From the NCBI GenBank assembly GCA_038325665.1, contig JBBQJF010000003.1, positions 1 through 44,961 on the forward strand: 44,961 bases of DNA. Reading direction: 5' to 3'. Under the pieces are notes generated by a model. It searched no databases, was not told where the DNA came from, and saw only the letters and a program-made list of their open reading frames with translations. This document shows positions 710 through 32,604 of this stretch, piece after piece (the first letter of the stretch is position 1; each line of letters begins with the position of its first letter). The translations under genes were made by a program, and so were the position numbers. Source of the DNA: Dehalococcoidia bacterium. Its GTDB lineage: Bacteria; Chloroflexota; Dehalococcoidia; CAUJGQ01.

Positions 710-745
710 ATTGTGCCCCGCGGCTGCGGTGCTGTCTGTCGGGCA
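710..745 (-). promoter_or_regulatory. Island promoter motif copy 1 (TGCCCGACAGAC-N18-CACAAT), upstream of BON gene
   Basis: Perfect TRCCYGACAGAC at 745-734; -10-like CACAAT at 715-710; partial inverted partner TGCCTGACAAC at 771-781, 25 bp away. Confidence 0.7.
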
Positions 746-928
746 TTCTCCCCCATCTCGTCGCGGCTGATGCCTGACAACGCGGCGCCGGTGGCGCGAA
801 CCGGCGGGCACGCGAAACCAGGAACTCAGGCGCTCGCCCGCCCTCCACCGACGATTCACGATCCCGTGCAGTAGCACGCGCCGGCGGCCGTTTGGTAGAG
901 GGCACTTCCCCGCCGATTTGTCTCTCGA

Positions 929-965
929 TACCCGACAGACAGGAACGCTCACTGGGGCCGATTAT
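929..965 (+). promoter_or_regulatory. Island promoter motif copy 2 (TACCCGACAGAC-N19-GATTAT)
   Basis: Perfect 12-mer at 929-940, oriented toward the DDN gene. Confidence 0.55.
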
Positions 966-1181
966 CAGCCATGAGGAGTGCAGGCCGCTGCTCGCGTTGA
1001 TTGCCCCAGCAAGGGCGAAACGGAAACTGCACCAATTGGCCGGCCGGTGCTGTGCCACCCACCGGTGGTCTAGCGTCCTCGCAAGCGCCGTGGTCACGAT
1101 CGCGGGTGAGGGTGTGGCTACGGAGCGGAGGCTGATACCGCGTTGACTGATTGCGTAGCGTGATTGACGGAGGTGTATGCC

Positions 1182-1898
1182 ATGGGGACGACGACACGAC
1201 AACCGCACCGGAGTGGCCCGGCCCGCCGCTCTCGATCGATGTTGGACCCATTATGGCTTCTCAACCACCTTGCCAATCCGGTCGTGCGACTGGTCCTGCG
1301 TTCGCCGTTCCACGGCCTGCTGAGCAGCGCCGTGATGCTCCTGACCTACCACGGCCGGCGGAGCGGGCGAAGCTATACCATGCCTGTTCAGTACGCGCGC
1401 GACGGACACGCCATCTACGTTTTGCCCGGCTGGCCCGCGCGCAAGACCTGGTGGCGGAACCTGCGCGGCGGCGCGCCGGTCGAATTGCGGGTGAGAGGGA
1501 GGGTCGTGGCCGGGACGGCGGAAGTGCTTGCGGGACGCGACGACGCGGCGGCACTCGCGATCGGCCTGACCCGTTTCCTGCAGCGTTTCCCGCGCGCGGC
1601 CCGGGCGAGTCAAGTGCACATCTCAGCGGACGGCGATCCAAACCCGGCCGAGGTTCAGGCCGCGGCCGCGGCATCGGTCATGGTGCGCATCTCGGTGAGC
1701 GCTCCGTCCGGCTGCCCCACCGCTGCGCGTCACACTGCCCCACAACGCCAGCAGGACTTACCCGACAGACGGGCGACTACCGGAACGCCATCATACCTGT
1801 GCCGGCAATCGGCGAGTATTTCGGCCGCTCGACGCCACGGTGAGGTGATTCGATGTTTGCGCGCGCAACCCTGCTCGAAATCGACACCGTCCGGATGA
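1182..1898 (+). CDS. Nitroreductase family deazaflavin (F420H2)-dependent oxidoreductase (DDN/FDOR-A)
   Basis: LLTYHGRRSGRSYTMPVQY and WWRNLRGGAPVELRVRG motifs; ATG 1182 has GGAGG RBS; the last ~65 aa look like non-conserved read-through across the next promoter. Confidence 0.85.
   Translation: MGTTTRQPHRSGPARRSRSMLDPLWLLNHLANPVVRLVLRSPFHGLLSSAVMLLTYHGRRSGRSYTMPVQYARDGHAIYVLPGWPARKTWWRNLRGGAPVELRVRGRVVAGTAEVLAGRDDAAALAIGLTRFLQRFPRAARASQVHISADGDPNPAEVQAAAAASVMVRISVSAPSGCPTAARHTAPQRQQDLPDRRATTGTPSYLCRQSASISAARRHGEVIRCLRAQPCSKSTPSG
1759..1794 (+). promoter_or_regulatory. Island promoter motif copy 3 (TACCCGACAGAC-N18-CATCAT)
   Basis: Perfect 12-mer, upstream of the 1853 ORF / ABC permease / P-type ATPase run. 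Confidence 0.65.
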
Positions 1899-2169
1899 AC
1901 CTGAACACCGCATTGGAGCGTGTCACGGAGCGTGTCCTGCCCGCGCTGCGCACGCGGCCAGGGTATCAGGGGGTGTCCGCGCGAAGACGCCCGCCGGCAA
2001 CGGGCTGCTGCTCACCCTATGGGAGCGCGAGGCGGCGGCGGAAGCTGGGGTGACGAGCGGCTATTACGACGAGCAGGTGTCTGAATTCTTGATGTTCCTG
2101 CGCGAGCCGTCGAGCCGCGACCACTACGAGGTCGCCTTCAGTGAAGTGCCGGCATCAACGCCGGTGTGA
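1853..2169 (+). pseudogene. Frameshifted ABM-like (dimeric alpha/beta barrel) small protein
   Basis: MFARATLLEIDTVRMNLNTALERVTERVLPALRTRPGYQGV continues coherently in another frame after ~1980 as KTPAGNGLLLTLWEREAAAEAGVTSGYYDEQVSEFLMFLREPSSRDHYEVAFSEVPASTPV*; GAGGTG RBS. Confidence 0.7.
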
Positions 2170-2249
2170 CACGGGCTGCGCAACTTATGTCGTGTCGAGC
2201 ACCGGCATACCGGCCATCATTCGGTGCCCAGCACACCGAGGAGGGCGCC

Positions 2250-5200
2250 ATGGACAAGCTATTCGGCATCTCGATGACCTCCATCATGTGGGTATTGCTG
2301 GCCCTGTTCGCGGCGTGCATCGCGATGGTGCTATCGATCTGGGTCACCAACCGCGTTATGTTCCGCCTGGGGCTGCGCAATGTTGTCCGTCGCCGCACCC
2401 ATACCGGGCTGGTGGTGGTGGGGCTGATGCTCGCCACTCTGATCATCACCGCCGCCTTCGCCACCGGCGACTCACTCGACTACTCAATCACCAAGATCGC
2501 CTACGACAACCTCCAGCGGACCGACCTGAGTCTGCATCACTTCCGCCCCACGGGCGGCGGGGAGAGCACGGCGGCTGTCCCGGAGAGTGGCTACGCGACC
2601 GAAACCATAATCCCAGCGCTGCGGCGGGCCTTCACGGATGACCCCGACATCGAAGGGTTCATTCCGCTCCTTTTCGAGGTCGCCCCAGCGCTCAACCCCC
2701 GCACGAAGCTGATCGAACCCGCGGCGATGCTCGCCGGAGTCGATCCGGCATCGCTCGACCACTTCGGTGGGTTGCGCGTCGTGGGCGGCGGGCGCGCCGA
2801 CCTCGCCGCGCTTGACGAGGCGACCGTCTACGTCAACCGGCGGGCGGCGGACAGGTTCGAGGCCCGGCGCGGCGACACGATCACCGTCTACGTACGGGGG
2901 ACCGCGCACGACTTCCGCGTCGCCGGCATCGTCGAAGACGAGCGGGCGAGCGGTGCGCTCGAATTTGGAACTTCGATCTCGTTGCCCGGCATCGTCCTGC
3001 CGCTGCCGGTGCTGCAGGAATTGGTAGGGCGGCCCGGCCAGATCTCGACCATCAACGTCGTGCTTTTCGGCGACGCGCGCAGCTCCATGATCCGCTCGGA
3101 CCCGGCCGCGGCACGGTTGGAGGAGTTCAGCCGAGAGGACCAAACGAAGGCAGCGTTCGGCCTGGAGGGGATCGCCTTCCAGGTGGAGAAGAATAAGCAG
3201 GACGCCGTGAAGGGCGCCGAACAGGCCGGCAATGCCTTCACGACCATCTTCATCCTAATGGGGCTGTTCTCGATCGCGGCGGGTGTGCTGCTGATCTTCA
3301 TGATCTTCGTGATGCTCGCCGCCGAGCGCCAAACGGAGATGGGCATTGCCCGCGCCGTCGGGGCCAAACGTGCGCACCTCGTGGAGATGTTCGTCTCCGA
3401 GGGTATGGTCTACGACATCATCGCTGGTGCGGCGGGCGCCGTGCTCGGCGTCGCGGCCGCGTTCTGGTTGATCGTCGGCGGCGCCCGCGTCGTGATCGGT
3501 GAGGAATTCGATTTCTTCGCGCCGCACGTCAGCGTCCGCTCGCTGGTCGTCAGCTACTGCCTCGGCGTCGTGCTGACCTTCCTCACGGTGGTGATCTCGT
3601 CGATGCGAGTCAGCCGACTGAACATCGTGGCGGCGATGCGCGGCCTGGATGAAGGGCGGCGCCGGCGCGAGCACCGGCAGCGGACCCACTGGCGCTGGGT
3701 GCTCGCGGGCGTCCCGGCGCTGGTGATCCCGCCGCTGGGGCTGTACTGGCTGCTGCGTAAAGGCTTCCGCCTGCCGTGGGCGTGGATCATCGGCCCCGTC
3801 GGCATCGCCCTCGGCGGAGCACTACTGGCCATAGGCAAGGTGACGGCACAGTCGTTTCCCTTCACTCTGGGCATGTCGCTCTTGCCGTTCTCGGCTGCCG
3901 CGCTGGCCGGCTACTACGGGGCACCCAGCCGCATCACGTGGACGACCGTCGGACTGCTGCTGGCGATCTTCTGGCTGGCGCCGACTGACCTGCATGACCG
4001 GCTGTTCGGCAAGCTGACGGGCGGCATGGAGATGTTCGTGCTGTCCGGCATTATGATCGTCGCCGCATTCACACTGGTGATCGTCTTCAACGCGCGACTG
4101 CTCAACGCGCTCACGGAACGGATCGGCGATACGAGCGCCGCGTACCGTGTGCCGCTGACGCTGCTCGGTGGAGCACTGTTGGCGATCGCCATTGCCTTCG
4201 TGGCCGGCGACCGGGCGGGCGGGCTGGGTCAGCTCTTCTACCTGCTCGCCGGGTTGCTCGTGCTGGCCGCGGCGCTCGCCCTCGCTGCCGTGCGCGTACC
4301 CAGCCTGGCGCCCGCATTGAAGATGGGCGTCGCTTACCCACTCGCCAACCGCTTCCGTACGGGCATGACGATCGCCATGTTCTCGCTAATCGTCTTCAGC
4401 CTGATCGTGATGAGTATCATCAACGCCAGCTTCCTCCAGCTCTTCGCCGGCGACGAATCGACGGGCGGATGGGACATCAGCGTGACCACCGCCCGCACCA
4501 ACCCGGTGCCGGATGTGCGCGTCGCCCTGGCAGAGGAGGGCTCGTTTGACGTCTCTCAAATCATTGCCCAGGGTCGGATGACGCGATTCGACAGCGACAA
4601 CCACGAGGTGCGCCAGGCCGGCAGCGACCGTGAGTGGCAGAAATACTCGGTTCGCGCCGGCGATGGCGCCTTCTGGTCGGGCAACGCGGCGAAGTTCGAT
4701 GGGCGCGCCGCCGGATACGACAGTGATCGGGCGGTCTTTGACGCCGTCGGTGCCACGCCTGGCCTAGCGGTGATTGACTCATTCCCGATGCAGTCGCAGC
4801 AGGGATTCGGGGCCGGCGGCTGGCATGTCAGCGGTGTTGCGATCAAGGACAGCGTGTTCGAGCCGTTCGAGGTGGAGTTTCGCGACCTATCCACCGGCCG
4901 CACCGCAAGGGTGACGGTGGTCGGTGTATTCTCCGCCAAAATCCCGACAACAATGATCGTAGGCGTGTACACGAACGAGCAGACGTTCCGGGCGGTGTAC
5001 GGCACGCCGGAGTACGACGACACGCTGCTGCGCCTCGCTCCCGGCGTGGACGGCGACAAGGCCGCGAAGGCGATCAAGGCCGCGCTCGTGACGAGAGGTG
5101 TACAGGCAAGCTCGATCCAAAAAATGGTCGACGATGTGCTGGCGCAGTCGCGCGGCATCATGCGCATCTTTCAGGTCTTCATGGGGCTGGGACTGCTGGT

Positions 5201-5558
5201 GGGGATCGCGGCGCTGGGCGTGGTCGCCTTTCGCTCGGTGGTTGAGCGGCGGCAGCAGATCGGCATGCTGCGCGCGATCGGCTACCAGCGCGGCACGGTA
5301 GCGTTGAGTTTCCTCTTGGAGTCAAGCTTCATCGCTTCGATGGGTATCCTCTCGGGTGTGGTGGGCGCGGCCATCCTGTCGTACAACCTGATCAATTCCA
5401 ATTACTTCACCACAACTTCGGGTCTGACCTTCTACATCCCCTGGACGGAGGTGATAGCCTTCGCGGTGATCGCCTATGGATCTGCGCTGCTGATGACCTG
5501 GTGGCCCAGCCGCCGCGCGGCGAGGGTACCTATCGCCGAGGCGCTGCGGTATGAGTAA
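2250..5558 (+). CDS. FtsX/MacB-like ABC transporter permease (duplicated FtsX domains)
   Basis: Two FtsX signatures (AERQTEMGIARAVGA; VERRQQIGMLRAIGY), C-terminal PSRRAARVPIAEALRYE; ATG 2250 with GAGGAGG RBS. Confidence 0.92.
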   Translation: MDKLFGISMTSIMWVLLALFAACIAMVLSIWVTNRVMFRLGLRNVVRRRTHTGLVVVGLMLATLIITAAFATGDSLDYSITKIAYDNLQRTDLSLHHFRPTGGGESTAAVPESGYATETIIPALRRAFTDDPDIEGFIPLLFEVAPALNPRTKLIEPAAMLAGVDPASLDHFGGLRVVGGGRADLAALDEATVYVNRRAADRFEARRGDTITVYVRGTAHDFRVAGIVEDERASGALEFGTSISLPGIVLPLPVLQELVGRPGQISTINVVLFGDARSSMIRSDPAAARLEEFSREDQTKAAFGLEGIAFQVEKNKQDAVKGAEQAGNAFTTIFILMGLFSIAAGVLLIFMIFVMLAAERQTEMGIARAVGAKRAHLVEMFVSEGMVYDIIAGAAGAVLGVAAAFWLIVGGARVVIGEEFDFFAPHVSVRSLVVSYCLGVVLTFLTVVISSMRVSRLNIVAAMRGLDEGRRRREHRQRTHWRWVLAGVPALVIPPLGLYWLLRKGFRLPWAWIIGPVGIALGGALLAIGKVTAQSFPFTLGMSLLPFSAAALAGYYGAPSRITWTTVGLLLAIFWLAPTDLHDRLFGKLTGGMEMFVLSGIMIVAAFTLVIVFNARLLNALTERIGDTSAAYRVPLTLLGGALLAIAIAFVAGDRAGGLGQLFYLLAGLLVLAAALALAAVRVPSLAPALKMGVAYPLANRFRTGMTIAMFSLIVFSLIVMSIINASFLQLFAGDESTGGWDISVTTARTNPVPDVRVALAEEGSFDVSQIIAQGRMTRFDSDNHEVRQAGSDREWQKYSVRAGDGAFWSGNAAKFDGRAAGYDSDRAVFDAVGATPGLAVIDSFPMQSQQGFGAGGWHVSGVAIKDSVFEPFEVEFRDLSTGRTARVTVVGVFSAKIPTTMIVGVYTNEQTFRAVYGTPEYDDTLLRLAPGVDGDKAAKAIKAALVTRGVQASSIQKMVDDVLAQSRGIMRIFQVFMGLGLLVGIAALGVVAFRSVVERRQQIGMLRAIGYQRGTVALSFLLESSFIASMGILSGVVGAAILSYNLINSNYFTTTSGLTFYIPWTEVIAFAVIAYGSALLMTWWPSRRAARVPIAEALRYE

Positions 5559-5678
5559 CCCAGCTCGTCAGAACCGGGGCCATGCGGCGGCAACCCCGGC
5601 AAGGGTCGAAGAGGCGCGCTCCAGTTGTCTCGGCCTCTCCGACCGACTACCCGAGGGCCGAGCGCCGAGGAGGTCTGT

Positions 5679-9406: not shown

Positions 9407-9442
9407 TACCTGACAGACAACGGGAACGCCGCGGCAGAAGCT
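9407..9442 (+). promoter_or_regulatory. Island promoter motif copy 4 (TACCTGACAGAC-N18-GAAGCT)
   Basis: Perfect 12-mer upstream of the USP gene at 9485. Confidence 0.7.
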
Positions 9443-16192: not shown

Positions 16193-16228
16193 AGTCTTGG
16201 ATATGTGGCTGCCGTTGTCTGTCAGGCA
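16193..16228 (-). promoter_or_regulatory. Island promoter motif copy 5 (TGCCTGACAGAC-N18-AAGACT)
   Basis: Perfect 12-mer at 16228-16217, upstream of the USP-led minus-strand gene run. Confidence 0.7.
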
Positions 16229-16743: not shown

Positions 16744-18309
16744 ATGAGCACGGTTGATCCCGATGCGAGCACCGATACGCATTTCCGCGGTTTGCTGGAG
16801 ACGGCGCCCGACGCGGTGGTGATCACCGACGAGGATGGACGCATCATGCTCGTCAACGGCCAGACGGAGCGGATGTTCGGCTACAGCCGCGACGAATTGC
16901 TCGGACGCTCGGTCGATGTGCTGCTCCCGGAACGGTTCCAAGGGACGCATTCCGGCCATCGCCAGGGCTACGCTGCCAACCCCCATACCCGGCCGATGGG
17001 TATAGGGCTGGACTTGTACGCCCGGCGACGGGATGGCGTCGAGGTTCCCGTCGAGATCAGCCTCAGTCCGATGCGCGAGGGCGACCGGCTGTTCGTCACC
17101 AGCATCATCCGTGACATTACCCTACGCCGGCAGACAGAAGGCGCGCTCAAGCAGGCGCGGGCGGAGGCCGAGGCCGCCAACCGCGCCAAGAGTGAGTTCC
17201 TCTCGCGGATGAGTCATGAGCTTCGCACCCCACTGAACGCGATCCTCGGATTCGGCCAGCTCCTCGAGTTGGACTTGACTGAACCCACGCAGCGCAAGCA
17301 CGTCGAGCGCATTCTCAAGGGTGGGCGCCACCTACTCGACTTGATAAACGAGGTGCTGGACATCGCCCGAATCGAGACCGGTCAGCTGCAGCTCTCGCGC
17401 GAGCCGGTGCGAATGAGCGATGCGCTGCGTGAGGCGCTCGACCTTGTTCGACCGATGGCGGCCGAGCGCGCCATCCAGCTCGGCACGGATGCGCTGGACA
17501 TCTGCGACCAGCATGTGATGGCCGACCGGCAGCGACTGACCCAAGTGCTGCTCAATCTCGTCGCCAACGCGGTCAAGTACAATCGCCCCGGCGGTACGGT
17601 CACCGTCTCCTGCGCGGCGGCGCCGGGGGGGCGGCTACGGATGGAGATCCGCGACACCGGACCCGGCATCCCGGCGGAGCGGCAATCACGACTATTCGCG
17701 CCGTTCGACCGGCTAGGCGCGGAGACGAGCGGTATCGAGGGCACCGGCCTGGGGCTGGCCCTTTCAAAGGGATTGACGGAGGCGATGGGCGGCGCCATCG
17801 GCGTCGAGAGCCGCGCCGGGGAGGGTAGCGCCTTCTGGGTCGAGCTGGACGCCGCAGAGCGTCGCACGGCTCCGGACGCGGGATTGCCCGGCGGATTGAG
17901 GCGGCCCCAGGAAACGGCCGGGGACAACGCCAGCCACACGATCCTGTATATCGAGGACAACCTCTCCAATTTGGAGCTGATCGAGGGCATCCTCGCCCGC
18001 TGGCCCGGTACCAACTTGCTCGCGGCGATGCAGGGGCGGCTGGGAATCGAGCTGGCGCGCAAGCATCGCCCCGACCTGATCTTGCTCGACCTACATCTGC
18101 CGGACGTGTCGGGCAGCGAGGTACTCGCCGTACTGCGCGATGACCCGGTGACACGGGCGATACCGGTCGTGATGATCACCGCCGACGCCACTCCGGGCCA
18201 GAGGGAGCGGCTGCTGGAGGCCGGCGCCCACAGCTATCTCACCAAGCCGCTCGACATCTCCCGGTTCCTCACCGTCGTGCGCGAGGCGCTGGAAGGAGGA
18301 GAGCGGTAG
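16744..18309 (+). CDS. PAS-domain hybrid sensor histidine kinase (PAS-HisKA-HATPase-REC)
   Basis: PAS (FGYSRDELLG..HTRPMG), SRMSHELRTPLN, NAVKYN, DTGPGI, GTGLGL, C-terminal REC (ILYIEDN, ILLDLHLP, YLTKP); no TM. Confidence 0.95.
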   Translation: MSTVDPDASTDTHFRGLLETAPDAVVITDEDGRIMLVNGQTERMFGYSRDELLGRSVDVLLPERFQGTHSGHRQGYAANPHTRPMGIGLDLYARRRDGVEVPVEISLSPMREGDRLFVTSIIRDITLRRQTEGALKQARAEAEAANRAKSEFLSRMSHELRTPLNAILGFGQLLELDLTEPTQRKHVERILKGGRHLLDLINEVLDIARIETGQLQLSREPVRMSDALREALDLVRPMAAERAIQLGTDALDICDQHVMADRQRLTQVLLNLVANAVKYNRPGGTVTVSCAAAPGGRLRMEIRDTGPGIPAERQSRLFAPFDRLGAETSGIEGTGLGLALSKGLTEAMGGAIGVESRAGEGSAFWVELDAAERRTAPDAGLPGGLRRPQETAGDNASHTILYIEDNLSNLELIEGILARWPGTNLLAAMQGRLGIELARKHRPDLILLDLHLPDVSGSEVLAVLRDDPVTRAIPVVMITADATPGQRERLLEAGAHSYLTKPLDISRFLTVVREALEGGER

Positions 18310-18312
18310 ACG

Positions 18313-19485
18313 ATGGACATGAAGGCGCTGCACACGGCCCGCCTCCTGCTGGTGGACGACGAGGAGGTCAACGTCGAGTTGCTGGAACACATCCTCGCGC
18401 GGGCCGGATACACCGATATCGTGCGCACCACCGACCCGCGGCGTGTTCTGCCCCTGTTCCAGGCCCATTCGCCCGACCTAATCGTGCTCGATCTGTTCAT
18501 GCCGCACATGGACGGGTTCGCGGTAATGGCGCAACTCGCACCGCACATCCCCGAGGAGGACTATCTGCCGATCTTGGTGCTGACCGCCGATGTCACCCGC
18601 CAGGCGCGCGAGGGGGCGCTGTCGGCGGGGGCACGCGATTTCCTGACCAAGCCGTTTGACCAAGTCGAGCTGCTCCAGCGCATCACGAATCTGCTGCAGA
18701 CTCGGTTCCTCTACCGCCAGCTCCAGCAGCAGAACCAGGCGCTGGAACGTGTCTACCAGGAGGCGCGCGCCGCCCTGACGATGCGCGATGCGTCGTTATC
18801 GACGATCTCGCACGACCTTGGTCAGCCGCTGGCCGCGATTCGGGTGGCGGCGCGGGTGATGCGGAAGCAGGCAGGAGGGGTGGTGACGGCAGAGGCGACC
18901 GGCGAGCGGGCGGGACTCGTGGCCGGCATCAATGATGCGGTGACACGAATGTGGGCGATGCTGGGCGAGTTGCACGACCTCTCGCGCCTCCAGGCGGGTC
19001 GATCGCTCGACCTGGTTCTGCACCCGACAGACCTGGTCGCGCTCGTGCGCCGCGAGGCAGCCGAGCACGCCCCGGGGGCGACACACCATCACTTGACGGT
19101 CGAGGCCGCTGAACCCGAACTGGTTGGCGAATGGGACGAGCCACGGCTAGCGCGCGTGGTTTCTAACCTGCTCACCAACGCGATCATGTACAGCCCCGAC
19201 GGCGGCGACATCGCGATCGGCGTGACGCGCGAGCGGGGTAACGGAACACGGGCAGATCACGCCGTGCTCGTCGTCCGCGATCAGGGTGTGGGCATTCCGG
19301 CAGCCGACCTACCGCGGGTGTTCGAGTCATTCCACCGCGGCGCGAACGTGGCGGGGCGATTCGCGGGCGCCGGCATCGGGCTGGCGGGCGCGCGGCAGAT
19401 CGTGGAGCAGCACGGCGGCGCGATCACGATCACCAGCGAAGAAAGGGTGGGCACGACCGTCACGGTGCGATTGCCGCTGGAGTGA
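18313..19485 (+). CDS. Response regulator-histidine kinase hybrid (REC-HisKA-HATPase)
   Basis: LLVDDE, VLDLFMPHMDG, FLTKP; SHDLGQPL, NLLTNA, DQGVGI, GAGIGL. Confidence 0.93.
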   Translation: MDMKALHTARLLLVDDEEVNVELLEHILARAGYTDIVRTTDPRRVLPLFQAHSPDLIVLDLFMPHMDGFAVMAQLAPHIPEEDYLPILVLTADVTRQAREGALSAGARDFLTKPFDQVELLQRITNLLQTRFLYRQLQQQNQALERVYQEARAALTMRDASLSTISHDLGQPLAAIRVAARVMRKQAGGVVTAEATGERAGLVAGINDAVTRMWAMLGELHDLSRLQAGRSLDLVLHPTDLVALVRREAAEHAPGATHHHLTVEAAEPELVGEWDEPRLARVVSNLLTNAIMYSPDGGDIAIGVTRERGNGTRADHAVLVVRDQGVGIPAADLPRVFESFHRGANVAGRFAGAGIGLAGARQIVEQHGGAITITSEERVGTTVTVRLPLE

Positions 19486-20158: not shown

Positions 20159-20194
20159 AGCGTTGCATATTGCCGCGCGATTGTCTGCCGGGCA
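20159..20194 (-). promoter_or_regulatory. Island promoter motif copy 6 (TGCCCGGCAGAC-N18-AACGCT)
   Basis: One-mismatch 12-mer at 20194-20183, upstream of the GNAT gene. Confidence 0.6.
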
Positions 20195-23994: not shown

Positions 23995-24091
23995 ATCGTG
24001 GGCGGCTCGTCGCGGGCCGTCTGTCGGGTAGCCTCGGACAATCGTGACCAGATGTTACCCGACAGACACGGTCACGCCTCTATTGCAGGGT
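23995..24091. promoter_or_regulatory. Divergent promoter pair: island motif copies 7 and 8 as a perfect inverted repeat
   Basis: GTCTGTCGGGTA (24019-24030)-N25-TACCCGACAGAC (24056-24067); each is followed at 18 bp by a -10-like hexamer (CACGAT leftward, CAGGGT rightward). Confidence 0.8.
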
Positions 24092-24166: not shown

Positions 24167-25264
24167 ATGAAAGCGCCGAACACGGCATCCGACTGGGCGG
24201 TCGTCGGGAGAAACGTGACCCGGCCGCGCGTCGCGCTGGCGGTCCTCGCGGTCCTGCTCGCCCTCTACGCCGTGGCAATTCACCCCTGGTTCATCAACTG
24301 GGGCGCCACCGAGCGGGAGCGGCAGATGGCCTTACCCGGTGACGAACTGAACGCTGATCCACGATGGCAGACCACCCGCGCGGTCACGATTAACGCCTCC
24401 ACCGGCGAGGTGTGGGCGTGGCTGATTCAGCACGGCCAAGACCGCGCCGGTTTCTACAGCTACACCTGGCTGGAGAACCTTACCGGCGCCGACATCCACA
24501 ACACCGATCAGATCCGGCCGGAGTGGCAGGGACGCGCGGTTGGTGACGCCATCCCGATGGCCCGCCCCGACCTGCTCGGCGGCCGAATGGGCGAGACAAG
24601 CGTGGTCCGCGTGGCCGCCATCGAACCAGGGCGAGCACTGGTTGTCACCGGGCAAGGCGCCGACACGGGAGCATGGATCCTGGCCCCGATCGACGCGCGC
24701 ACAACGAGGTTGATCGTACGCGAGCGCAACGGAGAGGCCGGAGTAGGTTCCGTGGCACGAGTCACCGGCTCGGTGATCCGCTCGCAAACATGGGATCCGA
24801 CGCACTTCGTCATGCAGCACGGCATGCTTGTCGGCCTCAAGGCGCGGGCGGAGGGCGACCCGAATCCACCAACGGCTGTCGGTCTGGCGTCCCGCGCCGG
24901 GTGGCTGACGGCGGGTGTCGCGCTGTTGGGTTTGTTCCTCCGCCGCCGCCGCTTCGGGCCGTGGCTAGTGCTGCCCGTCGTTGCCGCAACCCCGGCGATG
25001 CTCACCACCGGCGATATGGACGCCGCGCTGGCCGGGTTCCTCGCGGCCGGCATCACAACGCTGGGGGCGGTTGCCTTTGGCTGGCGCTGGTGGCCGCCCT
25101 TCGCGCTGATCGCGGCCGCCGTCCTGCTCGTGCTGCTGCTGTCACCAGACGCGTATGTCGCATTCGGCCTGCTTTTCGATGCGCTACTCGTGGGCGCGGC
25201 CGGTTGGATGGCGACACGAACGCTCCGGACGAGTGCCGCACGCCCACTACGAACTGCTTTGTAA
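24167..25264 (+). CDS. SRPBCC-like domain membrane protein
   Basis: WGAT..E..MALPGDEL, TRAVTINA..EVWAWLIQ.GQDRAGFYSYTWLEN, HFVMQ..ML.GLKARAE, plus C-terminal TM helices. Confidence 0.8.
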   Translation: MKAPNTASDWAVVGRNVTRPRVALAVLAVLLALYAVAIHPWFINWGATERERQMALPGDELNADPRWQTTRAVTINASTGEVWAWLIQHGQDRAGFYSYTWLENLTGADIHNTDQIRPEWQGRAVGDAIPMARPDLLGGRMGETSVVRVAAIEPGRALVVTGQGADTGAWILAPIDARTTRLIVRERNGEAGVGSVARVTGSVIRSQTWDPTHFVMQHGMLVGLKARAEGDPNPPTAVGLASRAGWLTAGVALLGLFLRRRRFGPWLVLPVVAATPAMLTTGDMDAALAGFLAAGITTLGAVAFGWRWWPPFALIAAAVLLVLLLSPDAYVAFGLLFDALLVGAAGWMATRTLRTSAARPLRTAL

Positions 25265-27432: not shown

Positions 27433-27468
27433 TGCCTGACAGACGGGGCCGCCCGGGGGTGGCACACT
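27433..27468 (+). promoter_or_regulatory. Island promoter motif copy 9 (TGCCTGACAGAC-N18-CACACT)
   Basis: Perfect 12-mer upstream of the CPBP gene. Confidence 0.7.
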
Positions 27469-27519: not shown

Positions 27520-28419
27520 ATGACAGCCATTACCATACGTCCGAGGGAAAGTCCTGAAACCACCCGGCAAGGCATGAATTTCGGGTCGCTCGGCCCATTC
27601 CTCGCGATTGCCTTCGGGCTGGGATGGGGGATCATCGCACTCTTAATCCTGTTCACGGATCAGATCGAGGCGATCTTCGGCGAAGTGGGTTATACGAACC
27701 CCGTGTTCATACTCGCCGTGTATTCACCGGGCATCGCCGGTGTGTTCCTGGTCTGGCGCCACCATGGCATCACGGGTCTGGGCAGCTACCTCCGGCGCGT
27801 CACGCTGTGGCGAATGCCGGCCGCGTGGTGGGTGTTGCTCGTAGTCGGCATGCCCGCCGTCTTCTACCTGGGCGCGACCATCAAGGGCACGATCACGGAC
27901 CCGTTCCCGTTCTCCCCCTGGTACGACATTCTGCCGGCGCTGGTAGCCGGGCTGTTGATCGGACCCGTTGAAGAGTTGGGCTGGCGCGGCGTGGCCCTGC
28001 CGCTGCTGCAACGCCGGTTCCCGCCGCTGTGGGCGGGCTTGATCCTGGGCGTGATCTGGGGCGTATGGCACGCGCCGGCGTTCCTGCTGAGTGGCACCCC
28101 GCAGAGTGCCTGGTCGTTCGGCCCGTACTTCATCGGCGTCCTGGCGATCACCGTCATCCTGACACCGATGTTCAACACCGCCCGGGGCAGCATCCTGATC
28201 GCGGCCCTATTCCACTTTCAGATGAACGGTCCCGCGTGGCCGGACGCTCAGCCCTGGGACAACCTCGTGTTCGCCATCGTCGCCGTGGTCATCGTGCTGT
28301 TCAACCTTCGGTCGATGCTGACCCGCGAGGGGGCCGTGACCGAGGTACTCATGACCGCGGAAGAAGGCAACCCCGACGACGCCGGCGCAATGGCACTGGC
28401 GCCCACGTACGGCAGATAA
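27520..28419 (+). CDS. CPBP family intramembrane glutamic endopeptidase (CAAX/Abi)
   Basis: EELGWRG, WGVWH, AALFH...N motifs. Confidence 0.9.
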   Translation: MTAITIRPRESPETTRQGMNFGSLGPFLAIAFGLGWGIIALLILFTDQIEAIFGEVGYTNPVFILAVYSPGIAGVFLVWRHHGITGLGSYLRRVTLWRMPAAWWVLLVVGMPAVFYLGATIKGTITDPFPFSPWYDILPALVAGLLIGPVEELGWRGVALPLLQRRFPPLWAGLILGVIWGVWHAPAFLLSGTPQSAWSFGPYFIGVLAITVILTPMFNTARGSILIAALFHFQMNGPAWPDAQPWDNLVFAIVAVVIVLFNLRSMLTREGAVTEVLMTAEEGNPDDAGAMALAPTYGR

Positions 28420-28431
28420 GGAGTCCATGTC

Positions 28432-29370
28432 ATGACGACCAAACAACGCGTCCCATTGTCACCAACCCCGCGAACCGCGTCCGGCGGCACGCCATCCCGG
28501 ACGCGGCGACGTGACCGCGGTCGCCGCTGGCGGGTGGCGGCAGGCGTTGCCGGCGGCGTGCTGATCGCCGCGACCGCGGCGGTGCTGATCGCGCGGTTCA
28601 CCTTCCAGCGCCAGATTTCACGCGAGGTCACGGCGCTGTTCGCGGCGCGTGCGGACGGGCCGGGGGCCGCCGTCACCGAGGCAGAGATCGCGAACCTCCC
28701 GGAACCGGTGCAACGCTGGCTGCGCGCGTCCGGTGTCGTGGGCAGGGAGCGACCCACCACGGTGCGGCTCACGTACACGGGCGAGTTCCGGCTGGGAGAG
28801 GACAAGGGTTGGATGCCGTTCGACTCGGAAACCTACTACACCACCGACCCGCCGGCCCTGCTGTGGACAGTCACGATGCGGATGTTCCCGCTCGTGTCGA
28901 TCACCGGCCGTGACCGCTACGCGCGGGGCGAGGGCAGCATCCACATGCGAGTCCTCTCGCTCGTTCCCGTGGCGAACAAGAGCGGCGGCGGGCTGAACCA
29001 AGGCTCCCTCCTTCGGTATCTCGGTGAGACGATCTGGTTCCCGAGTGGAACGCTCAGCCCGTACATCACCTGGGAGTCGATTGACGCGAACTCTGCCCGC
29101 GCGACGATGACGTACCAGGGCGTGAGCGGGTCACTCACCTTCTTCTTTGATGCCGAGGGCCGCGTCATTCGACAGGAGGCCGCCGGCCGCAACAACGACG
29201 CCACGGGCAGGCCAGAGCGCTGGTCGATCCCCATCACCGCTTATGGGGTGTTCGACGGGGTACTTGTGCCGGCCGAGGGCGAAGCTGTCTGGAACTACGC
29301 CACGGGGGATTTCAGCTACATTCGCATGCGCATCACCGACATCGAGTACAACCGGCCCGAGCAATACTGA
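28432..29370 (+). CDS. DUF6544/DUF6920-like protein with N-terminal TM anchor
   Basis: LPEPVQRWL, GRDRY..GEGS, LNQGSLLRYLGETIWFP, ITWESID; AAGGAG RBS. Confidence 0.8.
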   Translation: MTTKQRVPLSPTPRTASGGTPSRTRRRDRGRRWRVAAGVAGGVLIAATAAVLIARFTFQRQISREVTALFAARADGPGAAVTEAEIANLPEPVQRWLRASGVVGRERPTTVRLTYTGEFRLGEDKGWMPFDSETYYTTDPPALLWTVTMRMFPLVSITGRDRYARGEGSIHMRVLSLVPVANKSGGGLNQGSLLRYLGETIWFPSGTLSPYITWESIDANSARATMTYQGVSGSLTFFFDAEGRVIRQEAAGRNNDATGRPERWSIPITAYGVFDGVLVPAEGEAVWNYATGDFSYIRMRITDIEYNRPEQY

Positions 29371-29436: not shown

Positions 29437-29916
29437 ATGAAAGCGCTCGTGATTTACGACTCCAAGTTCGGCCACACGGAACAGATCGCGCGGGCGGTCG
29501 GCGACACGCTCGCGCAAGAGTTCACCGTTACGGTCGTCTCCGCCGCCGAGGCAGCGCCGCTGCCGCCGGAGATTGATCTGCTGGTCATCGGCGGGCCAAC
29601 GCACGCCCATGGCGCGAGTGAGCCCATGGACGCTCTGCTCGACACCCTCGGACAGGGCGCGCTCGTCGGTGTGGCGGCCGCGGCCTTCGACACCCGCTTC
29701 CAAATGCCGCGCTGGCTCTCCGGCTCGGCCGCCAGGGTGATCACCAAGCACTTGCTTCAGGCGGGCTGCACGATGGTCCTGCCACCGGAGAGCTTCTTCG
29801 TGGAGCGCACGGACGACGCGGCGCTGCTGCCGGGCGAGTTGGAGCGGGCGTCCACTTGGGCGCGGGCCGTGCTGGCGGCCACCCCGCGACCGGTCGCCGG
29901 CCGGCCGAACCGTTGA
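29437..29916 (+). CDS. Flavodoxin family protein
   Basis: MKALVIYDSKFGHTEQIA, IGGPTH, AAAFDTR, PESFFV..GELERA. Confidence 0.9.
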   Translation: MKALVIYDSKFGHTEQIARAVGDTLAQEFTVTVVSAAEAAPLPPEIDLLVIGGPTHAHGASEPMDALLDTLGQGALVGVAAAAFDTRFQMPRWLSGSAARVITKHLLQAGCTMVLPPESFFVERTDDAALLPGELERASTWARAVLAATPRPVAGRPNR

Positions 29917-30186: not shown

Positions 30187-30221
30187 TGCCTGACAGCGGA
30201 TCCGCGCCGGGCCATGAAGAT
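30187..30221 (+). promoter_or_regulatory. Island promoter motif copy 10 (TGCCTGACAGCG-N17-GAAGAT), upstream of nirK
   Basis: 10/12 match; partial inverted half (ATCTGTC...) at 30150-30161, 25 bp upstream. Confidence 0.55.
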
Positions 30222-30297
30222 GTTGGCATATCGCGACAGGATCGTATCGACAACCAACATCGTTCCGATGAACGCCGCGCTGCCAGGAGGGACTGTC

Positions 30298-31713
30298 ATG
30301 GCTATCGCAACCCGCCAAACTGCTCCGCACCAGGGCGCCCGCCGCCCGGCCGGCTGGACCGTTCTCGCGGTGCTCGGCATCCTCGCGCTGGTCTGGGCTA
30401 CCCTCGCTGTCCAGGCCGCGATCATGGGCGAGCGCCAGGACAGCCGCAACGCCGAGGTCCAGAAACAGATCTCGGCGATCACGACGGCCGCGCCGGCGAA
30501 GGCCGCGGCGCTGCCGGTCGAGGTCTCCGATCAGGCGAAGGCTCAGCCATTCGACGCCACGCTGGCGCCGGCCTCTACGGCGCCGGTCAAGGACATCACT
30601 CTTACGGCCACGGACAGGACCGTGGTCGGCATCGCCAAGGATGTCAACTTCCGGGGCTGGAGCTTCGGCGATACCGTGCCGGGGCGCCCAGTTCATGTCC
30701 GCCAGGGAGACACAATCAACTTTACCCTGGTCAACAACGGCGCTATGGGCCACGGCATGGACTTCCACGCCGCCTCAATCGACCCCGGCGCCAATTTCAA
30801 GGTCGTGCTGCCGGGTCAGTCGTTCAGCTTTAGCTGGAAGGCCGAGAGCCCCGGCGTGTTCATGTTCCATTGCAGCGCCGGTCCCGTACTTGAGCACATC
30901 GCGAACGGCATGTACGGCGCCATCATCGTCGACCCATCCACGCCGCTGCCGCCGGCGCGCGAGTACGCGCTCGTACAGTCCGAGTTCTACGTCGGGAAGA
31001 AGGGCGAGGCCTACACCGGCGATATGGACAAGATGCTGGCGGGTACGCCAGACTACGCGGTGTTCAACGGCATGGTCAATCAGTACCGTGAACACCCGCT
31101 CACCGCCAACCCGGGCGAGCCGATCCGGCTGTACGTGGTCAACGCCGGCCCCAACCAAACCAGCGCCTTCCACGTCATCGGCACAGTCTTCAGCGCGGTG
31201 TACCCGGACGGTAACCTGGCGAACAAACTCACCGGTGTCTCCACGTTCAATATCGCTCCCGGCGGCGCCGCCATGTTCGAGCTGACCATCCCGGCGGCGG
31301 GCACCTATCCGTTCGTCACGCACTCCTTCGCCGATGCGTCCAAGGGTGCGGTCGGCGTGATTCAGGTTGGTACACCGGCCGTGGCCGCGACCGACGTGCA
31401 CGACATGAGCGGCCGGACGGCCGTGGCCGCGACGAAACTGGACGTGACGGCGACAGACAACAAGTTCAACCAGGTCCAGATCACCGCCAAGGTCGGCGAG
31501 CCGACCACCATCACCCTTGCCAATAAGGGCAGCGCCCTACACAACCTGCGCGTGCAGGGGTTGGCGGGCACGGATGGCAAGGACGTGCAGACGGCACTGA
31601 TCGGCGGCGGCCAAACCGCGAGCGTCACGTTCACGCCGGACAAGGCCGGAACCTACAAGTTCGTGTGCGACGTGCACCCAGTGGAGATGGTTGGGACGCT
31701 GACCGTCAAGTAG
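30298..31713 (+). CDS. nirK: Copper-containing nitrite reductase, membrane-anchored, with extra C-terminal cupredoxin domain
   Basis: HGMDFHAA (T1 His, catalytic Asp, T2 His), FHCSAGPVLEHIANGM, SAFHVIG (catalytic His), YPFVTHS; C-terminal HNL...CDVHPVEM type-1 Cu site; AGGAGG RBS at 30298. Confidence 0.88.
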   Translation: MAIATRQTAPHQGARRPAGWTVLAVLGILALVWATLAVQAAIMGERQDSRNAEVQKQISAITTAAPAKAAALPVEVSDQAKAQPFDATLAPASTAPVKDITLTATDRTVVGIAKDVNFRGWSFGDTVPGRPVHVRQGDTINFTLVNNGAMGHGMDFHAASIDPGANFKVVLPGQSFSFSWKAESPGVFMFHCSAGPVLEHIANGMYGAIIVDPSTPLPPAREYALVQSEFYVGKKGEAYTGDMDKMLAGTPDYAVFNGMVNQYREHPLTANPGEPIRLYVVNAGPNQTSAFHVIGTVFSAVYPDGNLANKLTGVSTFNIAPGGAAMFELTIPAAGTYPFVTHSFADASKGAVGVIQVGTPAVAATDVHDMSGRTAVAATKLDVTATDNKFNQVQITAKVGEPTTITLANKGSALHNLRVQGLAGTDGKDVQTALIGGGQTASVTFTPDKAGTYKFVCDVHPVEMVGTLTVK

Positions 31714-32011
31714 CGGCGACCACTCTGACATGCACGGGGTGCGCCCGCGCATCGCGGCACATCCCGGACTATTATCGCGCGACGGCAGGCGGCTAGAACG
31801 GGGTCGCCTGCCGTCGCGCCGTGACGTCCACCCGAGTCCGTGCAGGCGGTTTTCGTCGCACCTACGGCAGACCGCTACGCCGGCGGGTATCGTCCCGCGT
31901 CCATGCGGACGCTGCCCCACAAACACCGGCCGGCCGCCATGCGACGCTCGGCCTGGATGTGACCGCCTCACACGCGACCGTGGAGCCGATAGCGCGAAAG
32001 GTGTCTATGGC

Positions 32012-32533
32012 ATGGCAGGTGTATCGACATCTCACACTTCTCAGGGACCGCGCGGAAGGAGCGACGCCAAACCCCTTCGACCAACCCCGATGCAACCGAA
32101 CGTACCGGCGCAGGCGGGCCGCATCATCGTGGCACTCTACTTCATGGTCATGGCCCTCGGCGTCAATGGCCTCTACCTCCTGCGTCACCCTGAGGCGTAC
32201 GACGCCATCGCCGATCTCGCGGTTTTGGCCCCCTACCAGTGGCTGCTACGCGAGGTCATCCGGCCGCTGGCTACCCCATTCACGCTGCTGCTGATTGCCT
32301 TCGAGCTGGCGGTAGCGCTGCTCGTCCTAAGCAAGGGCGTGGCGGTGAGGCTCGGGCTGATCGCCGGCATCGTCTTTCAGCTCGCCGTCATCCCCGGTGT
32401 GGCCGCGTACGGGCTGGTGAACCTGCCGGTGGTCGCCGCGCAAGCGCTGCTGTTGCGGACGACCTTCGACCGCTCGGTGATCGATCTCGTCCGCGATGGC
32501 TCGCACCGTGATGGAGCGCACCAGCGCGCCTAG
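32012..32533 (+). CDS. Hypothetical membrane protein (DoxX-like)
   Basis: About 4 hydrophobic helices, LLIAFELAVALLVL; start uncertain (32012 or 32090). Confidence 0.65.
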   Translation: MAGVSTSHTSQGPRGRSDAKPLRPTPMQPNVPAQAGRIIVALYFMVMALGVNGLYLLRHPEAYDAIADLAVLAPYQWLLREVIRPLATPFTLLLIAFELAVALLVLSKGVAVRLGLIAGIVFQLAVIPGVAAYGLVNLPVVAAQALLLRTTFDRSVIDLVRDGSHRDGAHQRA

Positions 32534-32568
32534 CCGGACGGGTGTCGCCCCACACCGATCGAGGAGGA

Positions 32569-32604
32569 TGCCCGCTACAGAAACCGGCCGGTCCGCACCA
32601 CGAT
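32569..32604 (+). promoter_or_regulatory. Degenerate island promoter motif copy 11 (TGCCCGctacag-N18-CACGAT)
   Basis: Only the 5' half matches, but the spacing to the -10-like hexamer is identical. Confidence 0.4.

What the first reader, a model, noticed from the sequence alone, without database searches (positions are those of the whole stretch)
710..32604. Unannotated regulon signature: TRCCYGACAGAC-N18-nAnnnT ahead of most island transcription units
Seen: eight perfect copies of TRCCYGACAGAC (734-, 929+, 1759+, 9407+, 16217-, 24019-, 24056+, 27433+) and three variants (20183-, 30187+, 32569+). Every copy points toward a downstream gene start. In 9 of 11 an nAnnnT hexamer follows at exactly 18 bp (CACAAT, CATCAT, GAAGCT, AAGACT, AACGCT, CACGAT, CAGGGT, CACACT, CACGAT); the other two are at 17 and 19 bp. 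I saw no full copy beyond 38 kb. Inference: the 12-mer occupies the -35 position. It is either a class II activator site (TACC resembles NarL-family half-sites) or the recognition element of an alternative sigma factor. It would link BON, USPs, acg, GNAT, ABC/ATPase, SRPBCC, CPBP and nirK into one regulon. It also corrects ORF-track starts (24041, 27358 and 30214 lie in or upstream of promoters).
Basis: partly seen in the sequence, partly recalled or inferred. Interest (0 to 1): 0.8.

Follow-up and report, generated by a model that had tools for sequence, protein, structure and literature searches.

The report
Shared promoter motif of a stress regulon
A 12-base DNA word sits at a fixed distance upstream of about 25-30 stress, respiration and dormancy-type genes in this uncultured bacterium and its relatives, most likely as the docking site of one two-component activator protein that switches them on together.

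Summary
TRCCYGACAGAC occurs 8 times in the window (0.01 expected) and 18 times in the 5.5-Mb genome, against 1 for the reversed control. An nAnnnT -10-like hexamer follows at exactly 18 bp in 13 of 18 exact sites and 12 of 71 one-mismatch sites, against 0 of 1 and 1 of 74 for the control. The composite signature occurs at least twice in 10 of 301 genomes of the class, mostly in the window's own family.

Best reading: these are housekeeping-sigma-type promoters with a weak -35 and a weak -10, activated by a class II factor bound at about -42 to -31. Many have a second, weaker site about 23 bp upstream, and some form divergent pairs. The likeliest factor is a NarL/FixJ-family response regulator with the invariant helix KTVDTYRQRIMEKL, encoded with a GAF-HisKA_3 kinase. 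This pair lies directly beside, or is driven by, motif promoters in 10 loci of 4 families.

Gene content (USPs, Acg, P-type ATPase, BON, NirK-like oxidases) and promoter geometry parallel the mycobacterial DosR regulon. The DNA word differs and no WhiB was found. Transcription starts, binding and the inducing signal are untested.

The parts
734..745 (-). Exact 12-mer TGCCCGACAGAC. The -10-like CACAAT is at 710-715 and the predicted start is near 703. It drives a BON/YtxH-domain gene (start 668, runs off the window start). An orphan inverted 9-mer TGTCAGGCA lies 25 nt upstream.
929..940 (+). Exact 12-mer TACCCGACAGAC. The -10-like GATTAT is at 19 bp (960-965). CCCCGC lies 15 nt upstream. The first ORF is an F420H2 quinone-reductase-like gene (1182-1898) after a long leader of about 211 nt.
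1759..1770 (+). Exact 12-mer with CATCAT at 1789-1794. It lies in the 3' end of the preceding ORF. It drives a small ORF (1853-2053), an FtsX-type permease (2166-5558) and a P2-type cation ATPase (5625-8315).
9407..9418 (+). Exact 12-mer with GAAGCT at 9437-9442. It drives a single-domain universal stress protein (9485-9961).
16217..16228 (-). Exact 12-mer with AAGACT at 16193-16198. It drives a tandem-USP gene (15175-16131). Membrane-protein ORFs and an F420H2 quinone reductase (12137-12736) follow on the same strand.
20183..20194 (-). One-mismatch copy TGCCCGGCAGAC with AACGCT at 20159-20164. It drives a GNAT acetyltransferase (19511-20089).
24019..24067 (.). Divergent promoter pair: 24019-24030 (-) and 24056-24067 (+), 25 bp apart.
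- The minus promoter (CACGAT at 23995-24000) drives DUF4342 (23646-23912), an Acg-family nitroreductase (22505-23527) and two tandem-USP genes (21257-22492, 20273-21190).
- The plus promoter (CAGGGT at 24086-24091) drives an unknown membrane protein (24167-25264).
27433..27444 (+). Exact 12-mer with CACACT at 27463-27468. It drives a CPBP/Rce1-like protease (27520-28419), DUF6544 (28432-29370) and a flavodoxin-like gene (29437-29916).
30187..30198 (+). Two-mismatch copy TGCCTGACAGCG with GAAGAT at 17 bp (30216-30221). CCCCAC lies 16 nt upstream. It drives a NirK-like multicopper oxidase with a C-terminal cupredoxin (30298-31713), then an unknown ORF (31730-32533).
32569..32604 (+). Doubtful, degenerate site. 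The 12-mer has 4 mismatches, but CCCCAC lies 15 nt upstream and CACGAT sits at 18 bp (32599-32604). It precedes an unknown membrane protein (32689-33612) and an M28 peptidase (33537-36185).
16744..19485 (+). Two sensor kinases inside the island, neither with a DNA-binding domain: PAS-HisKA-HATPase-REC (16744-18309) and REC-HisKA-HATPase (18313-19485). In relative G005 their homologues (62% and 52% identity) lie on the same contig as the candidate regulator operon. They are possible extra inputs and are not shown to be linked.

Best explanation
The 12-mer is the promoter-proximal, high-affinity binding site of a transcription activator. It overlaps the -35 region of about 25-30 promoters read by the housekeeping-type sigma factor.

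Geometry (inferred from sequence statistics): the -10 hexamer nAnnnT lies 18 bp after the word, and the start site is about 7 nt further on, at a pyrimidine-purine step. The word therefore covers about -42 to -31. Its last bases plus the next one (CAGACR) lie where a -35 hexamer would be at the genome's usual 17-bp spacing. They match the genome's own TTGACn -35 word only at G, A and C. The -10 lacks the usual first T. Such promoters should be weak on their own.

The first nine bases (TRCCYGACA) behave as the protein-binding unit. Inverted copies (TGTCRGGYA) and degenerate direct copies (tgCCCCAC) recur 22-25 and 14-16 nt upstream. This gives a second site centred about 23 bp further up, and shared sites in divergent promoter pairs.

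The most likely protein is a NarL/FixJ-family response regulator with recognition helix KTVDTYRQRIMEKL. It is encoded with a GAF-HisKA_3 histidine kinase, and in this genome with a hemerythrin-domain protein. This operon itself sits behind a motif-type promoter, so it would be autoregulated.

Proposed mechanism (inferred): on a redox, oxygen or NO-type signal, the phosphorylated regulator binds the two sites cooperatively and recruits RNA polymerase. This switches on USPs, an Acg nitroreductase, BON proteins, a cation ATPase, NirK-like copper oxidases, flavoproteins and membrane proteins.

Shown here: the motif, its spacing and orientation, its conservation, and its co-occurrence with the regulator. 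Inferred: binding, activation, start sites and signal.
For: 1. Non-random and promoter-linked.
- 8 exact copies against 0.01 expected; 18 against 1 for the reversed control.
- nAnnnT at exactly 18 bp in 13 of 18 exact and 12 of 71 one-mismatch sites, against 0 of 1 and 1 of 74 for the control.
- 17 of 18 exact sites have a same-strand ORF start within 250 nt.
- In 92 exact sites from 9 genomes, A at +32 in 63, T at +36 in 65, Y at 42 in 61 and R at 43 in 69.

2. Conservation. The composite word plus N18 plus nAnnnT occurs at least twice in 10 of 301 class genomes (13, 14, 15, 4, 4, 5, 2, 5, 3, 2). Six further genomes hold a single hit each. The reversed control gave 6 single hits in all 301.

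3. Housekeeping-type geometry. The genome shows a clear TTGACn-N17-TAnnnT peak: 109 at 17 and 76 at 18, against 13-37 at other spacings.

4. Multi-site architecture.
- Upstream inverted 9-mers cluster at -33 to -31: 23 sites with up to 2 mismatches.
- Direct degenerate copies cluster at -22/-21: 16 sites.
- 9 of 21 upstream inverted copies lack the GTC extension, and most lack an opposite -10, so they are not promoters themselves.
- In G000, 13 of 29 promoters have CCCCNC with a 14-16 nt gap and 12 of 29 have an inverted copy with a 22-25 nt gap.

5. Regulator link.
- On G000 contig C38 the genes run hemerythrin, GAF-HisKA_3 kinase, REC-GerE regulator. A motif promoter follows the regulator's stop directly, and a variant word with TACGAT at 18 bp stands in front of the operon.
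- 10 regulator loci were examined: G000 C38, G005 C43 and C197, G002 C21 and C16, G001 C312, G004 C15, G017 C153, G109 C17, G126 C66. A motif site lies just downstream of the regulator gene in 8 of them (convergent in G002 C21 and G001 C312). A motif stands in front of the operon in 6: G000 C38, G005 C43 and C197, G002 C16, G001 C312, G004 C15.
- All these regulators share the helix KTVDTYRQRIMEKL at 61-82% overall identity.
- The nearest paralogue group (KTVETYRRRAMEKL) has no motif-like site in 4 of 4 loci.
- G109 and G126 were picked only for having the motif, and both proved to hold the regulator beside it. Two congeners of G109 without the motif gave no regulator hit.

6. No sigma-factor gene lies within 10 kb of an exact site.

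7. Parallel with a solved system. DosR boxes are tandem, in helical phase at -42.5 and -63.5, and serve divergent promoters (PMC3177182, passages read). The DosR box is centred at -43.5 over a suboptimal -35 and contacts sigma region 4 and the alpha subunit (PMC13486717, abstract and passages read).
Against: - No start site, expression or binding data exist. No RNA run holds the locus.
- Three motif-positive genomes (G003, G006, G033) gave no regulator of the KTVDTYRQRIMEKL type. In G033 the motif instead precedes a kinase-regulator operon whose helix differs (STVETHRARIMEKL). In G003 different LuxR-type proteins lie nearby.
- Two genomes have the regulator but no exact motif. G017 has one-mismatch variants beside it. 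G174 has nothing adjacent.
- One G017 locus (C165) has no credible site nearby.
- Adjacency could mean the two-component system is a member of the regulon rather than its master.
- The word is asymmetric. The proposed weak left half (TGKC at -9 to -6) carries only about 1 bit.
- The 23-bp centre spacing is not an integral number of helical turns.
- Kin genomes are not independent. The association rests on roughly three or four lineages.
Confidence: 0.55

Rival explanations
1. The word is a class II activator site, but the activator is a different protein. It could be another LuxR-type or a so far unrecognised DNA-binding protein. The NarL-type two-component system would then be only one of the regulated operons.
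For: - G003, G006 and G033 carry good motif promoters (5 of 7, 2 of 3 and 5 of 6 with a -10 at 18 bp) but gave no regulator of the KTVDTYRQRIMEKL type.
- In G003, a PAS-LuxR one-component protein and two other LuxR-type genes lie within 5 kb of sites.
- Dense islands make adjacency easy.
Against: - No other DNA-binding protein recurs beside the motif.
- The unknown island proteins in the window are multi-pass membrane proteins.
- The same syntenic block of kinase, regulator and motif about 55 bp after the stop recurs in four families.
- The regulator and the motif are gained or lost together within genus g85.
Confidence: 0.2
2. The word is the -35 element of an alternative sigma factor, and nAnnnT is its -10 element. 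No activator is needed.
For: - The word is asymmetric and nearly invariant.
- It has one orientation and a rigid 18-bp distance to the -10.
- The -10 lacks the first T that the genome's canonical promoters have.
Against: - Twelve conserved bases are more than a sigma region 4 usually reads (general knowledge, recalled).
- Orphan inverted copies and degenerate direct copies upstream have no role in a pure sigma model.
- None of 16 sigma genes in G000, nor 76 in five relatives, lies within 10 kb of an exact site. There is therefore no autoregulated sigma gene of the usual ECF kind.
- The A(-11)/T(-7) type of -10 is that of housekeeping-like sigmas.
Confidence: 0.15
3. The word is an operator for a repressor that blocks the -35 region until a signal releases it.
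For: It overlaps the -35 position. Many redox and NO sensors are repressors (general knowledge, recalled).
Against: - Operators need no fixed register with the -10, yet here 18 bp holds in about 70% of 92 sites.
- The underlying -35 (CAGACR) and -10 (no first T) are poor compared with the genome's own canonical promoters. Release of a repressor would therefore leave a weak promoter.
Confidence: 0.07

Closest known systems
DosR/DevR dormancy regulon of Mycobacterium tuberculosis (DosS/DosT-DosR)
   Same: - The regulator is a NarL-family response regulator paired with a GAF plus HisKA_3 kinase, and the operon is itself in the regulon (PMC3177182 passages).
- The regulon is rich in universal stress proteins, an Acg-family nitroreductase (NF047509 above its cut-off) and a CtpF-like P2-type ATPase. 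CtpF (Rv1997) and Rv0571c stand in the paper's Table 1 of DevR-regulon promoters; that Rv0571c resembles the phosphoribosyltransferase found here is recalled.
- It has two or more tandem sites, with the proximal one centred near -43 over a weak -35, and shared sites in divergent promoters (PMC3177182 and PMC13486717, passages).
- Six USPs belong to the DosR regulon (PMC2914252, abstract in the search listing).
   Different: - The DNA word is unrelated. DosR reads GGGACT in each half of a palindrome (PMC3177182), and GGGAC-N4-GTCCC is not enriched in the window (32 found against 49 expected).
- By an alignment recalled from memory and not computed here, the two residues after KTV in the recognition helix are D-T rather than the base-contacting pair of DosR.
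- The kinase has one detected GAF domain and is preceded by a hemerythrin-domain protein.
- The host has no WhiB and so is probably not an actinobacterium.
- The site is strongly asymmetric.
- DevR is only the fourth-best solved relative (E 4e-36), after three VraR-named entries.
NarL/NarP nitrate-nitrite regulons of enterobacteria
   Same: The regulator family is the same (REC plus GerE; NarL model E 7e-44, below its cut-off). From memory, NarL heptamers begin TAC-C, like the TACC/TGCC start of this word. They also work singly or in varied arrangements.
   Different: The rest of the word differs. The kinase here has no NarX-type sensor module. The targets are stress and dormancy-type genes, not nitrate respiration operons. 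No equivalog model is reached.
Class II CRP/FNR-type activation (site centred near -41.5 overlapping the -35)
   Same: The position of the site relative to the -10 is fixed, and it replaces a good -35.
   Different: The protein family differs. The word is not a symmetric inverted repeat, and TGTC-N11-GACA is wider than a CRP/FNR site (recalled).

Membership tests
Sigma-70-type promoter with a class II activator site | Site at a fixed distance from a -10 element with A at -11 and T at -7 | tested here: met
   13 of 18 exact sites have it at exactly 18 bp, against 0 of 1 for the control. In 92 sites, A occurs in 63 and T in 65.
Sigma-70-type promoter with a class II activator site | Poor -35 hexamer at the organism's normal spacer length | tested here: met
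   The genome's own promoters peak at TTGACn-N17-TAnnnT. Word positions 8-13 are CAGACR at a 17-bp spacing.
Sigma-70-type promoter with a class II activator site | Transcription start about 7 nt after the -10, dependent on the activator | not testable with these tools
   No RNA run holds the locus. Only a Y/R preference at positions 42/43 is seen.
DosR/DevR regulon | Dev box: palindrome with GGGACT in each half | tested here: not met
   GGGAC-N4-GTCCC with up to 2 mismatches gave 32 hits against 49 expected and no exact copy. The 12-mer has no such half-site.
DosR/DevR regulon | NarL-family regulator with a GAF-HisKA_3 kinase, autoregulated | tested here: met
   Pfam domains. A motif or variant stands in front of the operon in G000, G005 (twice), G002, G001 and G004.
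DosR/DevR regulon | At least two adjacent sites, the proximal one near -43 | tested here: inconclusive
   A second element is present in about 20 of 29 G000 promoters at about 23 bp. Positions relative to the start site are inferred, not mapped.
DosR/DevR regulon | Induction by hypoxia, NO or CO | not testable with these tools
   No expression data.
Alternative (ECF-type) sigma promoter | Sigma gene preceded by its own promoter motif, or encoded in the regulon | tested here: not met
   None of 16 sigma genes in G000 nor 76 in five relatives lies within 10 kb of an exact site.
Alternative (ECF-type) sigma promoter | Conserved -35 word at rigid spacing from a conserved -10 | tested here: met
   The -10 is of the A/T housekeeping type, however.
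NarL/FixJ response regulators (the candidate protein) | Receiver domain plus C-terminal GerE/LuxR helix-turn-helix | tested here: met
   PF00072 at 8e-29 and PF00196 at 4e-22. The best solved relatives are VraR, DevR, DesR and NarL. No NCBIfam equivalog cut-off is reached.

The most novel reading that the evidence does not exclude
An uncultured, non-actinobacterial lineage has assembled a DosR-like dormancy or hypoxia regulon. It includes USPs, Acg, a CtpF-like ATPase and a GAF-kinase/NarL-type regulator, with class II tandem sites near -43 and -66. It runs on a regulator with a new DNA specificity. The recognition word fuses an activator half-site with the remnant of a -35 hexamer. The whole module (regulator plus word) moves between families as an island.
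Probability: 0.45. Interest if true: 0.55.

Novelty: new member of a known kind. Interest (0 to 1): 0.42.

Why it matters
- It gives a testable regulatory map for an uncultured soil or sediment lineage: about 25-30 promoters per genome, predicted start sites and corrected gene starts.
- It links many proteins of unknown function (DUF4342, DUF6544, DUF998 and several membrane proteins) to one stress response.
- If the regulator assignment holds, it is a natural example of a DosR-like programme rebuilt with a different DNA code. That helps in working out how NarL-family recognition helices specify their sites.
- The word itself is a simple marker for finding the regulon in metagenomes.

Tried and rejected
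- Expression and start sites: one search for sequencing runs found no RNA holder.
- Naming the organism: a genome-contig scan with the Acg protein returned 80 loci from many phyla at 42-60% identity and none from the window's own lineage. The only clue is that no WhiB was found in a 92%-complete genome.
- Literature: full-text searches for four 9-10-base pieces of the word gave only primers and unrelated eukaryotic elements among the 15 of 826 papers listed. A search for DosR plus Chloroflexi plus regulon plus USP listed only actinobacterial work among 10 of 119. Supplementary files were not consulted.
- Two-mismatch copies carry no signal: 32 of 1210 against 36 of 1215 with a -10.
- MerR-type reading (YGACA as a -35 with a 21-bp spacer): rejected, because the spacer holds no conserved dyad.
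- Paralogue regulator group (KTVETYRRRAMEKL): no motif-like site in 4 loci.
- Conservation of targets: only 19 of 75 relatives' sites have a first gene similar to a G000 regulon protein. Membership is fluid. Pfam on 20 more targets gave copper and redox proteins such as PCYCGC, DUF305, COX2, cupredoxin, flavin reductase and CofD.
- G007's three exact copies lack a -10 and are taken as chance.

Full report
**1. The observation**

Shuffles give a mean of 0.01, and none of 100 reaches eight.

Allowing mismatches adds 20183- (one) and 30187+ (two). It does keep the two flanking elements described below.

The nine hexamers quoted at exactly 18 bp are correct. 929 has GATTAT at 19 bp and 30187 has GAAGAT at 17 bp. 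Three other one-mismatch hits (11765-, 19021+, 34980-) have no -10 and look like chance.

All 11 sites point at a same-strand ORF that starts 35-211 nt after the predicted start site. Ten of the 11 have a Shine-Dalgarno-like sequence. Starts 24041, 27358 and 30214 of the longest-ORF track lie upstream of or inside the promoters. Better starts are 23912, 27520 and 30298.

**2. Beyond the window**

The window is contig C3 of a 5.51-Mb, 633-contig assembly with 66.6% G+C. The genome has 18 exact copies against one of the reversed, non-complemented control.

| Sites in G000 | Motif: nAnnnT at exactly 18 bp | Reversed control |
|---|---|---|
| Exact | 13 of 18 | 0 of 1 |
| One mismatch | 12 of 71 | 1 of 74 |
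| Two mismatches | 32 of 1210 | 36 of 1215 |

The word therefore tolerates at most about one change, and the regulon has roughly 25-30 promoters. A weight matrix gives a clean gap: 25 sites score 25 bits or more, and the rest score 23 or less.

Seventeen of the 18 exact copies have a same-strand ORF start within 250 nt. The exception, C62:15464, lies antisense inside a gene and has no -10. That is not what is seen, so the finding passes.

**3. Conservation**

In 40 relatives, all seven genomes of the same family hold 3-22 exact copies against 0-4 for the control. One genome of another family (G033) holds six.

In 301 genomes of the class, the composite (word, N18, nAnnnT) occurs at least twice in ten genomes:
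- G000 13, G002 14, G005 15
- G001 4, G004 4, G003 5, G006 2
- G033 5, G109 3, G126 2

Six other genomes hold single hits, the same number as the reversed control gives in all 301. G007's three bare copies lack a -10 and are taken as chance.

In G005, homologues of the window's genes lie on the contig that holds the candidate regulator. These include the two hybrid kinases, USPs, GNAT, flavodoxin and two unknowns.

**4. Anatomy**

In 92 exact sites from nine genomes, the only strongly conserved columns outside the word are:
- A at +32 (63 of 92) and T at +36 (65 of 92);
- a purine at +13;
- a pyrimidine/purine step at +42/+43 (61 and 69 of 92).

I read +43 as the start site, which puts the word at -42 to -31.

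The genome also has ordinary promoters. TTGACn-N17-TAnnnT peaks at 109 for a 17-bp spacer and 76 for 18, against 13-37 at other spacers. At a 17-bp spacing, the -35 slot of the motif promoters is word positions 8-13, CAGACR. This shares only G-A-C, and sometimes the final A, with the genome's own TTGACn -35 word. The first T of the -10 is not conserved either. These are weak housekeeping-type promoters.

Upstream there is more structure.
- Inverted 9-mers (TGTCRGGYA, the complement of word positions 1-9) cluster at -33 to -31: 23 sites with up to two mismatches.
- Direct degenerate copies cluster at -22/-21 (16 sites), often as tgCCCCAC.
- Positions -9 to -6 show a weak TGKC.
- Of 21 good upstream inverted copies, 12 are the partner promoter of a divergent pair. 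Nine lack the GTC extension, and most of those lack any -10 on the other strand.
- In G000, 13 of 29 promoters have CCCCNC with a 14-16-nt gap, and 12 of 29 have an inverted copy with a 22-25-nt gap.

The nine-base unit therefore behaves as a protein-binding half-site. The last three bases (GAC) are specific to promoters.

**5. What the promoters drive**

In the window:
- a BON/YtxH protein;
- an F420H2 quinone-reductase-like protein;
- an FtsX permease and a P2-type cation ATPase;
- a single USP and three tandem USPs;
- a GNAT acetyltransferase;
- DUF4342 with an Acg-family nitroreductase (NF047509, 348 bits against a cut-off of 199);
- a CPBP protease, DUF6544 and a flavodoxin;
- a NirK-like copper oxidase;
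- several multi-pass membrane proteins.

Elsewhere in G000: a three-BON protein, an ABC ATPase, an acyl-CoA-synthetase-type enzyme, DoxX, a second multicopper oxidase, a phosphoribosyltransferase, a PNPOx-like flavoprotein, PspC, SHOCT, DUF998, an M28 peptidase and another USP.

Membership is only partly conserved. Nineteen of 75 sites in relatives precede a homologue of a G000 target. Others precede copper and redox proteins.

**6. Who reads the word**

The window encodes two sensor kinases but no DNA-binding regulator in the island. An FHA-OmpR-type protein lies outside it, at 43031-43729.

On contig C38 the minus strand reads as follows: unknown ORF, hemerythrin-domain protein, GAF-HisKA_3-HATPase kinase, REC-GerE regulator. 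Directly after the stop comes a motif promoter for a multicopper oxidase, then another for DoxX. In front of the operon stands TGCCCGACACGA with TACGAT at exactly 18 bp.

Regulators of 61-82% identity lie beside the motif in ten loci in all (G000 C38, G005 C43 and C197, G002 C21 and C16, G001 C312, G004 C15, G017 C153, G109 C17, G126 C66).
- A motif site lies just downstream of the regulator gene in eight of the ten. It is convergent in G002 C21 and G001 C312. In G000, G109 and G126 it stands about 55 bp after the stop.
- A motif stands in front of the operon in six: G000 C38, G005 C43 and C197, G002 C16, G001 C312 and G004 C15.
- All of these regulators carry KTVDTYRQRIMEKL in the recognition-helix region.
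- One further locus, G017 C165, has no credible site.
- The nearest paralogue group (KTVETYRRRAMEKL) has no motif-like site in four loci.

As a forward test, G109 and G126 were chosen only because one search showed the motif there. Both proved to hold the regulator next to it. Two congeners of G109 without the motif gave no hit.

Class-wide, the DNA-binding domain is found at E 1e-24 or better in 8 of 301 genomes. Six of these are among the ten motif-positive genomes, and G126 is a seventh by the full-length search.

Exceptions are real:
- G003, G006 and G033 have the motif without this regulator.
- In G033 the motif precedes a kinase-regulator operon with a different helix.
- In G003 other LuxR-type genes lie nearby.
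- G017 has only one-mismatch variants.
- G174 has the domain but nothing adjacent.

No sigma-factor gene lies within 10 kb of an exact site: 16 genes were checked in G000 and 76 in five relatives.

**7. Mechanism and comparison**

The best-supported reading is class II activation by a NarL-family regulator bound at a strong proximal site and a weaker distal site. This is the DosR architecture.
- Dev boxes are tandem, in phase at -42.5 and -63.5, and serve divergent promoters (PMC3177182, passages).
- The DosR box is centred at -43.5 over a suboptimal -35 and touches sigma region 4 and the alpha subunit (PMC13486717, abstract and passages).

Gene content is also DosR-like. This is nevertheless not a DosR regulon by sequence.
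- The DosR half-site GGGACT is absent and not enriched.
- DevR is only the fourth-best solved relative, after three VraR-named entries.
- No NCBIfam equivalog is reached.
- The genome has no WhiB.

The alternative-sigma, repressor and other-activator readings remain open at lower odds.

**8. Limits**

- There are no expression, start-site or binding data.
- Gene calls are my own crude GC3-based calls.
- Related genomes are not independent.
- Supplements of the two DosR papers were not seen. They hold the site maps that would allow a finer comparison of spacings.

Noticed in passing
window 16513-16560: A perfect 24-bp tandem direct repeat (two copies) lies about 190 bp upstream of the hybrid kinase gene (16744), just after a TATGCT hexamer. 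It may be a separate regulatory site for the kinase operon, which has no motif copy of its own.
   Followed up: no
window 39905-41437: This ORF has a terminase RNaseH-like domain (PF17289, E 6e-6). It lies just beyond the last motif promoters, among short unassigned ORFs. This may be a prophage remnant marking the edge of the island.
   Followed up: no
window 42007-43729: A PP2C phosphatase (minus strand) is divergent from an FHA plus OmpR-type winged-helix protein of EmbR-like architecture. This is a Ser/Thr-phosphorylation signalling pair with no link to the motif.
   Followed up: no
window 3-668: Two long ORFs overlap on opposite strands. The plus-strand one (3-467) has high GC3 but no family. 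The minus-strand one carries BON and YtxH domains and sits behind the 734 promoter, so the minus-strand gene is the real one.
   Followed up: partly
L081 (G000 contig C11) 3871-5700: Two motif promoters converge (3871+, 5689-). The minus one drives a 388-aa membrane protein gene of unusually low G+C for this genome, which may be recently acquired. The plus one has no clear ORF.
   Followed up: partly
G014 (another family of the class), many contigs: The variant TGCCGGACAGAC (G at position 5) occurs at least ten times among the one-mismatch hits. Total one-mismatch counts there are not above the control. It may be a sister regulon with a slightly different word. The same variant heads a good promoter in G000 (C11:13186) and lies beside the regulator in G017.
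   Followed up: no
L139 and L141 (G003 contigs C31 and C59): Two nearly identical promoter regions (word, spacer and -10 almost base for base) precede paralogous unknown proteins of about 230 aa. A LuxR-type gene lies within 5 kb of each (a PAS-LuxR protein at C31; the C59 gene shown only as a GerE-domain hit). This is a duplicated module.
   Followed up: partly
whole genome G000: No WhiB-family hit in a 92%-complete assembly, although F420-dependent enzymes and an Acg protein are present. The nearest Acg homologues (42-60% identity) are scattered over many phyla, which suggests wide horizontal spread of Acg.
   Followed up: partly
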